This document shows positions 55,650 to 55,718 of a stretch of 64,000 nt of DNA, one piece after another. The stretch is from sequence record PX393109.1; one strand, 5' to 3'. The DNA is from a phage. The notes below the pieces were generated by a model, which was not told where the DNA came from, searched no databases, and saw only the letters and a list, made by a program, of their open reading frames with translations. Both the position numbers and the translations under genes were made by a program. The stretch's first letter is position 1. Every line of letters begins with the position of its first letter.

Positions 55650-55718
55650 CCCCATTATCACATGTACCGGAGCAGGGTAGTCACGGCTGTCTGGATGGCT
55701 TAGGCCATGATAATGGGG
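55650..55718 (+). ncRNA. tRNA-sized structured element between the two tRNAs (degenerate tRNA or processing element?)
   Basis: 11-bp perfect terminal stem CCCCATTATCA/TGATAATGGGG enclosing internal hairpin ATGGC-TTAG-GCCAT. Confidence 0.3.

What the first reader, a model, noticed from the sequence alone, without database searches (positions are those of the whole stretch)
55650..55718. tRNA-sized element with an 11-bp perfect closing stem between tRNA-Arg and tRNA-Met
CCCCATTATCA...TGATAATGGGG closes a 69-nt unit with an internal ATGGC-TTAG-GCCAT hairpin. It is the right size and place for a third tRNA but lacks a canonical T-loop (GTTCRANYC) and has an over-long acceptor-like stem. It could be a degenerate or non-canonical tRNA, a processing signal between the two tRNAs, or a tRNA-like decoy.
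Basis: seen in the sequence. Interest (0 to 1): 0.45.

Follow-up and report, generated by a model that had tools for sequence, protein, structure and literature searches.

The report
Unannotated tRNA-ended RNA between phage tRNAs
The 69-base hairpin is real but is only the tip of a conserved 135-base structured RNA, wedged between two phage tRNA genes, that ends like a tRNA (7-bp stem + ACCA) without being one; it is a new example of the unexplained "extra" stable RNAs in phage tRNA clusters.

Summary
It caps a 135-nt rod-shaped RNA ("X", window 55624-55758, + strand). X starts 6 nt after tRNA-Arg(UCU) and ends 4 nt before tRNA-Met.

X is closed by a 7-bp stem followed by A + CCA, the terminal architecture of a tRNA. 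ARAGORN and all 4227 Rfam models, tRNA included, reject it.

Homologues:
- Two E. coli phages, IME392 and EP_H11.
- Four Logan/ENA contigs of the same phage group.
- Salmonella Kuttervirus SenALZ1, an unrelated phage, where X lies between other tRNA-cluster units, just upstream of tRNA-Tyr.

Across these, 13 of 47 base pairs change on both sides and stay paired. Hairpin A, the junction strand and a 3' bulge are almost invariant. One relative lacks X and joins tRNA-Arg to tRNA-Met directly, so X is a dispensable cassette rather than a processing signal.

Most other Ackermannviridae carry a different 74-nt RNA, with a stem plus ACCA, at the SenALZ1 position.

Best reading: X is co-transcribed with the tRNAs, released by RNase P and 3' trimming, and acts through its conserved tip. 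Its function is unknown. The closest analogues are T4 RNAs C and D. No expression data were available.

The parts
55541..55617 (+). tRNA-Arg (anticodon UCU) with encoded CCA. It is the upstream neighbour; a 6-nt spacer (55618-55623) separates it from X.
   Evidence: ARAGORN; Rfam tRNA model, 70.5 bits
55624..55758 (+). X RNA: the whole 135-nt conserved structured unit. It is a rod of four helices capped by a three-way junction.
   Evidence: MFE fold -56.6 kcal/mol. Covariance model R1 scores 119-159 bits in 8 loci. Covariation in 13 of 47 pairs.
55624..55630 (+). P1 5' strand, CGGGAUC. It pairs with 55748-55754 (GGUCCCG) to form the 7-bp acceptor-like stem.
   Evidence: In SenALZ1 the stem is GGGUUCG/CGAACCC: 5 of 7 pairs changed on both sides, none broken.
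55748..55758 (+). P1 3' strand GGUCCCG (55748-55754), unpaired A55755 in the discriminator position, and encoded CCA (55756-55758). Four nucleotides (GUUC) follow before tRNA-Met.
   Evidence: ACCA is invariant in all homologues while the stem sequence changes.
55631..55647 (+). 5' strands of P2 (55631-55638, pairs with 55736-55743) and P3 (55642-55647, pairs with 55729-55732 and 55720-55721).
   Evidence: covarying pairs (helices 2-4).
55649..55719 (+). It comprises P4, an 11-bp stem (55649-55659/55709-55719); the junction strand ACAUGUA (55660-55666); hairpin A; and hairpin B.
55667..55694 (+). Hairpin A, CCGGAGCAGGGUAGUCACGGCUGUCUGG. It is nearly invariant across two unrelated phage lineages and is the presumed functional site.
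   Evidence: Alignments. Helix 6: 8 of 10 pairs never vary.
55695..55708 (+). Hairpin B, AUGGC-UUAG-GCCAU. Its sequence is free but its pairing is kept: AUAGC/GCUAU in IME392 and EP_H11, GUGCU/AG(A)CAC in SenALZ1.
   Evidence: helix 7.
55720..55735 (+). 3' side of the rod, with the conserved bulge GUUUGGCAAAUCC (GUUUGA-AAAUCU in SenALZ1).
55763..55838 (+). tRNA-Met (anticodon CAU) with encoded CCA; the downstream neighbour.
   Evidence: ARAGORN; Rfam tRNA model, 72.2 bits.
54726..54775 (+). Nearest upstream copy of the phage-specific promoter-like motif (core AAAGGCTGTTAAA at 54755-54767). It is the probable start of the transcription unit that contains tRNA-Arg, X and tRNA-Met. The next copy is at 55987.
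   Evidence: 13 copies, all on the + strand, against 0.08 expected by chance.

Best explanation
Window 55624-55758 encodes a discrete 135-nt non-coding RNA (X). It lies on the same strand and, most likely, in the same transcript as tRNA-Arg and tRNA-Met.

Its two ends pair into a 7-bp helix followed by an unpaired A and CCA. The ends therefore look to the cell like a tRNA acceptor end.

Proposed maturation (inferred):
1. RNase P cuts 5' of C55624. This also frees tRNA-Arg with a 6-nt trailer.
2. RNase P cuts 5' of tRNA-Met, leaving a 4-nt tail on X.
3. 3' exonucleases trim that tail back to the CCA.
4. The result is a stable, rod-shaped RNA.

It is a three-way junction in which hairpin A, the junction strand and a nearby bulge are sequence-constrained, while hairpin B and the stems are constrained only to pair. 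This pattern is typical of a site that binds a protein or another RNA.

X behaves as an exchangeable cassette of phage tRNA arrays. It is present or absent at boundaries that fall exactly at ...ACCA, and it has moved between unrelated phages.

Shown here: the structure, the covariation, the tRNA-like terminus, the cassette behaviour and the absence of any tRNA body. Inferred: transcription, RNase P and exonuclease maturation, stability, and a trans-acting role of the tip.
For: **Position.** X sits 6 nt after the CCA of tRNA-Arg and 4 nt before tRNA-Met. No promoter-like motif lies between 54755 and 55987, and no terminator is predicted at X.

**Fold.** The 135-nt fold has a 7-bp P1 followed by A-CCA.

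**Homologues.**
- IME392 and EP_H11, 91% identical.
- Logan/ENA contigs L024, L026, L027 and L030.
- Kuttervirus SenALZ1, 76% identical over the tip only. Its basal stems differ in sequence but still pair, and it ends GGGUUCG...CGAACCC-A-CCA, 3 nt before tRNA-Tyr.

**Covariation.**
- 97.5% of cells are paired.
- 13 of 47 pairs are changed on both sides, against 0-3 pairs when partners are slid by 1-3 columns.
- 0 of 500 shuffles reach the observed values.
- In P1, 5 of 7 pairs are changed on both sides.

**Strand.** Nineteen G-U cells would be A-C mismatches on the other strand.

**Same design elsewhere.** A 74-nt RNA in other Ackermannviridae has a 13-bp closing stem with 7 covarying pairs, an invariant core and an invariant ACCA. 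It occupies the slot that X fills in SenALZ1.

**Biochemical precedent.** RNase P uses the 3' RCCA and also cleaves non-tRNA substrates (pre-4.5S RNA, phage M3 RNA, phage C4 RNA) and polycistronic tRNA transcripts (PMC11143913).
Against: - There are no expression data. Nothing here shows that X accumulates as a discrete RNA or that RNase P cuts at C55624.
- Only six distinct sequences exist, from essentially two lineages. Most two-sided changes come from the single SenALZ1 sequence, and alignment A3 was fitted to the model's structure, so the covariation counts lean towards that structure.
- '7 bp + NCCA' closures are not rare by themselves: about 8 chance hits per 1.5 kb when spans of 50-450 nt are allowed.
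- Position +1 is C and -1 is A in the window, not the U(-1)/G(+1) combination that, from my own knowledge, E. coli RNase P is usually said to prefer. Nothing run here checks this.
- A neighbouring stem-closed module in IME392 lacks a CCA, so not every unit in these arrays follows the rule.
- No partner for the conserved tip was found.
Confidence: 0.6

Rival explanations
1. X is a cis-acting spacer or processing structure. It exists only to space and present the flanking tRNAs to RNase P, RNase III or RNase E, is degraded after cleavage, and has no function of its own.
For: X lies tightly between two tRNAs. Its long, nearly continuous double-stranded rod resembles RNase III substrates. Other stem-closed modules without a CCA occur in the same arrays.
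Against: - Contig L031 joins tRNA-Arg-ACCA to tRNA-Met through the same GTTC spacer without X.
- In SenALZ1, X flanks different units. In L024 there is no tRNA-Arg upstream.
- A mere spacer would not keep hairpin A, the junction strand and the bulge nearly invariant at 76% overall identity while the stems drift.
Confidence: 0.15
2. X is a degenerate or non-canonical tRNA: a pseudogene, or a tRNA with a giant insertion.
For: It has a 7-bp acceptor-like stem with a discriminator A and CCA and sits in a tRNA array. Odd tRNA-like genes do occur in related arrays (L020 3042-3127 scores 48.7 bits to the tRNA model).
Against: - ARAGORN makes no call in any homologue.
- The Rfam tRNA, tRNA-Sec and tmRNA models give no match at E<=10, even when X is searched alone.
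- X has no T-loop, no D-arm and no 7-nt anticodon loop, and it is 135 nt long.
- A decaying pseudogene would not show compensatory changes that preserve a non-tRNA fold.
Confidence: 0.03
3. X is a DNA-level element: a miniature mobile element with terminal inverted repeats, a recombination or homing site, or a protein-binding palindrome.
For: X shows presence/absence polymorphism with sharp boundaries between close relatives, and it has transferred to an unrelated phage. Homing endonucleases are common in phage tRNA clusters (T4 segB; an HNH gene in Marshall; PMC13096335).
Against: - X is single-copy in the window and in each relative.
- It is absent from 5,426 E. coli genomes.
- G-U pairs make the structure strand-specific, and nested helices with covariation extend far beyond a pair of terminal repeats.
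- The boundaries coincide with an RNA feature (ACCA), not with target-site duplications.
Confidence: 0.05
4. The inverted repeat is a chance occurrence in a non-coding spacer.
For: Twelve-bp perfect inverted repeats are expected 0.38 times per shuffled window.
Against: The repeat is conserved in 7 other loci with compensatory substitutions, including in a different phage family.
Confidence: 0.01

Closest known systems
Phage T4 RNA C (species 1, 139 nt) and RNA D (species 2, 119 nt)
   Same: - They are small RNAs encoded inside the phage tRNA cluster, on the tRNA strand, and are not tRNAs.
- They lie directly downstream of tRNA-Arg(UCU): 1 nt, then 6 nt spacers.
- They are of similar size to X.
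- They have tRNA-like terminal features. In rnaD the genome reads ...GGCGCACC|A. rnaC carries a canonical T-arm, CCGGGUUCGAAUCCCGG.
- Their function is still unknown (PMC3014915; PMC12685909).
   Different: - There is no sequence or structure homology: model R1 finds nothing in the T4 tRNA region at E<=10.
- X has no T-arm.
- X is a rod capped by a three-way junction and closed by a clean 7-bp stem plus ACCA. The 5' 26 nt of rnaD lie outside its terminal helix.
- T4 RNAs C and D are annotated in the T4 record as small stable RNAs. X has not been observed experimentally.
Non-tRNA substrates of bacterial RNase P (pre-4.5S RNA, phage phi80 M3 RNA, P1/P7 C4 antisense RNA)
   Same: Each has a helix formed by its 5' and 3' ends, followed by a 3' RCCA-like tail. 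This is sufficient for RNase P to define the 5' end (PMC11143913). X has such a helix and an A-CCA tail.
   Different: X matches none of these Rfam families at E<=10. Cleavage of X by RNase P has not been tested.
Ackermannviridae tRNA-array 'module 3' (74 nt) and 'module 1' (about 115 nt), both unannotated; my working names
   Same: - Both are non-tRNA units between tRNA genes.
- Both are closed by a long stem followed by ACCA and a short A/T-rich spacer.
- Module 3 has 7 covarying pairs in a 13-bp closing stem around an invariant core. With module 2, it occupies the slot that X fills in SenALZ1.
- Module 1 is conserved in over 200 phage records.
   Different: Their core sequences and folds differ from X. 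R1 scores them only 5-10 bits, and only through the terminal stem plus ACCA. They are not in Rfam either.
Bacterial and phage Y RNA-like RNAs (YrlA)
   Same: They are modular non-coding RNAs that mimic part of a tRNA and are substrates of tRNA enzymes, including RNase P and CCA addition (PMC4201824).
   Different: - YrlA mimics the tRNA body (T and D arms), and its terminal stem binds Ro60.
- X mimics only the acceptor end.
- No Rfam family of any kind, Y RNA families included, matched X.
- The window was not scanned for a Ro60 gene.

Membership tests
Canonical tRNA | Cloverleaf recognised by tRNA finders and covariance models | tested here: not met
   ARAGORN makes no call at X in the window or in any homologue. 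Rfam RF00005 gives no match at E<=10.
Canonical tRNA | T-arm with a GTTCRANYC loop, a D-arm and an anticodon arm; length about 70-95 nt | tested here: not met
   The sequence at 55624-55758 has no such motifs. The unit is 135 nt, and its fold is a rod plus a three-way junction.
Canonical tRNA | 7-bp acceptor stem, unpaired discriminator base and 3' CCA | tested here: met
   CGGGAUC/GGUCCCG + A + CCA in the window; GGGUUCG/CGAACCC + A + CCA in SenALZ1. This applies to the 135-nt unit, not to the 69-nt element.
T4 RNA C / RNA D | Homology in sequence or structure to T4 rnaC or rnaD | tested here: not met
   Model R1 finds nothing in the T4 tRNA region L004 at E<=10. No shared motifs are visible by eye.
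T4 RNA C / RNA D | Non-tRNA gene of about 120-140 nt inside the phage tRNA cluster, directly after tRNA-Arg(UCU), on the same strand | tested here: met
   This is a positional analogy only.
T4 RNA C / RNA D | Accumulates as a stable RNA in infected cells | not testable with these tools
   No transcript data were available.
RNase P non-tRNA substrates | Terminal helix followed by a single-stranded RCCA | tested here: met
   The requirement is taken from PMC11143913.
RNase P non-tRNA substrates | Cleaved by RNase P at the base of the helix | not testable with these tools
   Needs an in vitro cleavage assay or an rnpA(ts) host.
Any Rfam 15 family (tmRNA, SRP/4.5S, C4, Y RNA, self-cleaving ribozymes, GOLLD/ROOL and others) | Match to the family covariance model | tested here: not met
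   No family reaches its gathering score apart from the two tRNAs. With X searched alone at E<=10, the only hit is an 11-bit chance match to a miRNA model on the opposite strand.
Intrinsic terminator | G+C-rich hairpin followed by a U-run | tested here: not met
   No terminator-like site is predicted at 55620-55760. P4 is followed by GUUUGGCAAAUCC and further pairing.
Miniature inverted-repeat mobile element | Multiple dispersed copies with terminal inverted repeats and target-site duplications | tested here: not met
   One copy per genome fragment, none in E. coli genomes, and the structure is strand-specific through G-U pairs.

The most novel reading that the evidence does not exclude
X, together with the unannotated ACCA-ended RNAs in Ackermannviridae tRNA arrays, is a class of tRNA-end mimics. 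They enter the tRNA maturation pathway in order to act as decoys or inhibitors of host factors that handle or attack tRNAs, such as tRNA-cleaving anti-phage nucleases or tRNA-processing enzymes. On this reading they are traded between phages as cassettes, alongside the anti-defence tRNAs, by recombination driven by homing endonucleases.
Probability: 0.15. Interest if true: 0.8.

Novelty: new member of a known kind. Interest (0 to 1): 0.5.

Why it matters
- **An old open question.** Phage tRNA clusters have been known since the 1970s to hold extra stable RNAs (T4 RNAs C and D). Their roles are still unknown (PMC3014915).
- **Why X is a useful handle on it.** X is a second, unrelated example, and it is structurally much better defined. 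It has a clean acceptor-like end, a covarying rod and a small invariant tip. It also comes with natural presence and absence variants, and with a counterpart RNA at the same slot in over 200 Ackermannviridae genomes. This makes the question testable by deletion, pull-down and host-range experiments.
- **Link to anti-defence.** Recent work shows that phage tRNAs themselves are anti-defence genes (PMC11555353, PMC10802454, PMC13096335), so the non-tRNA passengers of the same arrays are obvious candidates for related roles.
- **Annotation.** These RNAs are missing from Rfam and from every GenBank record examined here.

Tried and rejected
- **Exact-pattern scans for the conserved hairpin A:**
  - IMG/VR, 2 patterns: 0 hits.
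  - JGI metagenomes: 2 hits, both in high-GC coding sequence and not homologous.
  - GTDB genomes: 13 hits, about the number expected by chance, and none matched by model R1.
- **Protein-anchored search in IMG/VR** with the downstream 263-aa gene found nothing. The 5.8-billion-protein search found one cluster only, which did lead to useful Logan/ENA contigs.
- **blastn of X against 5,426 E. coli genomes** gave no match, so there is no prophage copy and no long similarity or complementarity to the host.
- **Search of the window for antisense targets** of the conserved bulge and of the hairpin A loop found none beyond chance.
- **Model R1 on other tRNA arrays found nothing.** These were T4, Klebsiella N1M2, Cobetia Carin-5, Aeromonas TSW001, Salmonella Marshall and five more Ackermannviridae. 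In several of these phages the Arg-Met interval holds a small protein gene instead.
- **Ideas considered from the sequence and dropped:**
  - SRP/4.5S-like tip: no Rfam hit.
  - Hammerhead or other self-cleaving ribozyme: no core motifs, no Rfam hit.
  - Anticodon-loop or D-loop mimicry by hairpin A: only a loose resemblance, judged from my memory of E. coli tRNA-fMet. Not tested.
  - AlaRS-type G3:U70 identity: absent in X, variable in module 3.
- **Pfam scan of neighbouring ORFs** was uninformative, apart from a weak DnaJ CxxCxGxG hit for the 67-aa ORF.
- **Literature searches** for a prior description of this RNA, or of Ackermannviridae tRNA-array ncRNAs, found none in the held library.
- **The selz/SenALZ1 genome-reduction study.** It reports its deletions in terms of genes and never mentions tRNA or non-coding regions (PMC9825161). 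That X is retained in all its sequenced reduced genomes is therefore not evidence of essentiality.

Full report
**1. The observation**

The repeat finder extends them to 12 nt, 55649-55660 / 55708-55719, with 47 nt between them. ATGGC-TTAG-GCCAT is at 55695-55708.

In the minimum-energy fold the closing stem is 11 bp (55649-55659/55709-55719) and the small hairpin takes T55708.

- The 69-mer folds at -29.5 kcal/mol (z = -2.95) on the + strand and -25.3 kcal/mol on the - strand.
- ARAGORN finds only tRNA-Arg(UCU) at 55541-55617 and tRNA-Met(CAU) at 55763-55838.
- Rfam finds only these two tRNAs.
- A perfect 12-bp inverted repeat with a 10-120 nt loop is expected 0.38 times per dinucleotide-shuffled window, and the real window has three. 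The repeat alone proves little.

**2. The element is the tip of a larger unit**

Alignment with the two closest phage records shows that conservation starts at ...TTAACGGGATC and ends at ...CCCGACCA, well outside the 69 nt. These records are Escherichia phages vB_EcoM_IME392 and EP_H11, about 91% identical here.

Folding 55618-55762 gives a rod at -56.6 kcal/mol:
- P1: 55624-55630 / 55748-55754, 7 bp.
- P2: 55631-55638 / 55736-55743, 8 bp.
- P3: 55642-55647 with 55729-55732 and 55720-55721.
- A three-way junction made of a 7-nt strand (ACAUGUA), hairpin A (55667-55694) and hairpin B (55695-55708).

P1 is followed by an unpaired A55755 and CCA 55756-55758. The unit, which I call X, is therefore 55624-55758, 135 nt. 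It lies 6 nt after the CCA of tRNA-Arg and 4 nt before tRNA-Met. Both flanking tRNAs also carry an encoded A-CCA.

**3. Homologues and covariation**

blastn of X against 50,697 phage records finds two groups:
- IME392 and EP_H11.
- Eleven records of one Salmonella Kuttervirus (Ackermannviridae): SenALZ1, selz and SeTs-2, 76% identical over the tip only.

In SenALZ1 the unit lies between an unannotated 115-nt module and tRNA-Tyr, 3 nt before the latter. It folds into the same rod. Its basal stems have a different sequence but still pair, and it ends GGGUUCG...CGAACCC-A-CCA.

The downstream 263-aa protein led to further contigs of the window's phage group in Logan and ENA assemblies. A covariance model built from four sequences (R1) finds X at 135-159 bits in L024, L026, L027 and L030, and a truncated copy at the end of L025.

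On the seven-sequence alignment (six distinct sequences):
- 97.5% of cells form standard pairs.
- 13 of 47 pairs have changes on both sides, against 0-3 when the 3' partners are slid by 1-3 columns.
- None of 500 column shuffles reaches the observed values.
- P1 has 5 of 7 pairs changed on both sides and none broken.
- Hairpin B goes AUGGC/GCCAU, then AUAGC/GCUAU, then GUGCU/AG(A)CAC.
- In hairpin A, 8 of 10 pairs never vary. The junction strand CAUGUA, the 5' ACGU and the 3' bulge GAGUUUG(G/A)..AAAUC are also conserved.
- Nineteen G-U cells would be A-C mismatches on the opposite strand, so the RNA is read from the tRNA strand.

Caveats: there are essentially two independent lineages, and the alignment was fitted to the model.

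**4. What X is not**

- **Not a tRNA.** ARAGORN makes no call in any homologue. No Rfam match is found at E<=10, either in a 2.5-kb search or when X is searched alone. There is no T-loop, D-arm or anticodon loop.
- **Not any Rfam family.** This includes tmRNA, SRP RNA, C4, Y RNAs, the self-cleaving ribozymes and the large phage-associated RNAs.
- **Not homologous to T4 rnaC or rnaD**.
- **Not a terminator**.
- **Not a repeated mobile element.** It is single-copy and absent from 5,426 E. coli genomes.
- **Not required for tRNA processing.** In Logan contig L031, tRNA-Arg-ACCA is joined to tRNA-Met by the same GTTC spacer with no X. In L024, X has no tRNA-Arg upstream.

**5. Cassette behaviour**

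Differences between relatives fall exactly at unit boundaries.
- The window reads ...GACCA|GTTC|tRNA-Met. IME392, EP_H11, L024 and L026 carry an extra stem-closed module of about 100 nt, inserted between ACCA and GTTC.
- IME392 has a further module of about 210 nt between tRNA-Arg and X.
- In most Ackermannviridae, the slot between module 1 and tRNA-Tyr (or the next unit) holds two other modules. SenALZ1 has X there instead.
- One of those two is a 74-nt RNA with a 13-bp closing stem (7 covarying pairs), an invariant core and an invariant ACCA. It is not in Rfam.

An ACCA-terminated, stem-closed, non-tRNA unit is thus a recurrent design in enterobacterial phage tRNA arrays. Homing endonucleases are frequent in such arrays (T4 segB; an HNH gene in Marshall; PMC13096335). 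They offer a plausible route for exchange, but this is inference.

**6. Transcription context**

A 35-nt motif, CCGCTCTTTTGTAnnGTCGAAAGGCTGTTAAAnTGT, occurs 13 times in the window. All copies are on the + strand, upstream of genes or non-coding stretches, against 0.08 expected by chance. It reads like a phage-specific promoter.

tRNA-Arg, X and tRNA-Met lie between the copies at 54755 and 55987, with no predicted terminator in between. They are probably one transcription unit.

**7. Mechanism proposed**

- **Shown:** the structure, the tRNA-type terminus and the tight packing between tRNAs.
- **From established knowledge** (PMC11143913): bacterial RNase P recognises an acceptor-type helix with a 3' RCCA. 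It cleaves non-tRNA substrates of this kind (pre-4.5S RNA, phage M3 RNA, phage C4 RNA) and separates polycistronic tRNA transcripts.
- **Inferred:**
  1. RNase P cuts at 55623/55624 and at 55762/55763.
  2. Exonucleases trim the 4-nt tail back to the CCA.
  3. X persists as a stable rod.
  4. The invariant tip (hairpin A, junction strand, bulge) is the site through which X acts, most likely by binding a protein.

No RNA target was found in the window or by blastn in E. coli.

**8. Comparison with the known**

The closest analogues are T4 RNAs C and D:
- They are 139 and 119 nt long.
- They lie directly after tRNA-Arg(UCU) in the tRNA cluster.
- They have tRNA-like features: a T-arm in C, and an encoded ...CACC|A end in D.
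- Their function is still unknown (PMC3014915; PMC12685909).

X shares their position, size class and tRNA-like terminus, but not their sequence or fold. I therefore file it as a new member of that loosely defined kind (phage tRNA-cluster stable RNAs), not as a member of any defined family.

**9. Verdict**

- The real feature is a previously unannotated 135-nt structured RNA family, with a narrow known distribution and an unknown function.
- Interest is moderate (0.5). It would be higher if the decoy or anti-defence reading were shown.

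Noticed in passing
window 2200, 3597, 6316, 7391, 52562, 53908, 54515, 54573, 54755, 55987, 57452, 58442, 63649 (start of the 13-nt core): A motif of about 35 nt, CCGCTCTTTTGTAnnGTCGAAAGGCTGTTAAAnTGT, occurs 13 times, all on the + strand, against 0.08 expected by chance. Copies lie upstream of genes or non-coding stretches. It is probably a phage-specific promoter: an extended -10-like TGtTAAAnT plus an upstream box.
   Followed up: partly
window 55839-56632: A stretch of about 790 nt after tRNA-Met contains no ORF of 60 aa or more. It is split by the promoter-like motif at 55987, conserved in all relatives, and has no Rfam match. Its folding energy is unremarkable (z = -0.97 for 56006-56632; z = +0.51 for 55839-55985). 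It could be a long leader or an unknown RNA.
   Followed up: partly
window 55269-55350: An inverted repeat with 25-nt arms (88% complementary, 32 nt apart) lies just upstream of the tRNA block. It is conserved in IME392, L026 and L031, but its 3' arm is replaced in EP_H11.
   Followed up: partly
window 55360-55563: A 67-aa ORF has two CxxCxGxG motifs (weak Pfam DnaJ_CXXCXGXG hit, E = 0.0017, below the cut-off). Its end overlaps the start of tRNA-Arg. It is absent from IME392 and L026, and is replaced by an unrelated 210-aa ORF in L031.
   Followed up: partly
L035 401-650; L020 2508-2755; L032-L036: Ackermannviridae tRNA arrays hold unannotated, conserved non-tRNA modules. One is a 115-nt unit, GGGUGUG...CACCC-A-CCA, found in over 200 records. 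Another is a 74-nt unit with a 13-bp covarying stem plus ACCA. Neither is in Rfam.
   Followed up: partly
L002 2560-2640; L020 3042-3127: tRNA-like genes have normal acceptor, D and T arms but an insert of about 22 nt (AAAG(C/T)TTCGAGAGAACAAGGTG) in place of a normal anticodon loop. They are shared by EP_H11 and Kuttervirus Marshall. ARAGORN does not call the EP_H11 copy, and the Marshall record does not annotate its copy, which scores 48.7 bits to the Rfam tRNA model.
   Followed up: no
L001 3675-3860 (also L002 3325-3505): A unit of about 185 nt after tRNA-Met in IME392 and EP_H11 contains two T-arm-like hairpins and is closed by GCCAC...GUGGC-A-CCA. It is absent from the window.
   Followed up: no
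L024 2954-2971: A run of about 17 G sits in the 3' arm of P4 of X in an ENA contig. The window has G4 and EP_H11 has G6 at this position. It is either an assembly artefact or a slippage-prone tract.
   Followed up: no
window 44350-44476 and 10983-11044: Two other long inverted repeats: 24-nt arms 79 nt apart, and 28-nt arms 6 nt apart. Neither was examined.
   Followed up: no
whole window: The phage lineage is rare in public data. The only relatives found were IME392, EP_H11 and a handful of Logan/ENA contigs. The helicase at 58999-60639 is at most 38% identical to anything else in 50,697 phage records. Several Logan contigs break inside the tRNA/ncRNA island.
   Followed up: partly
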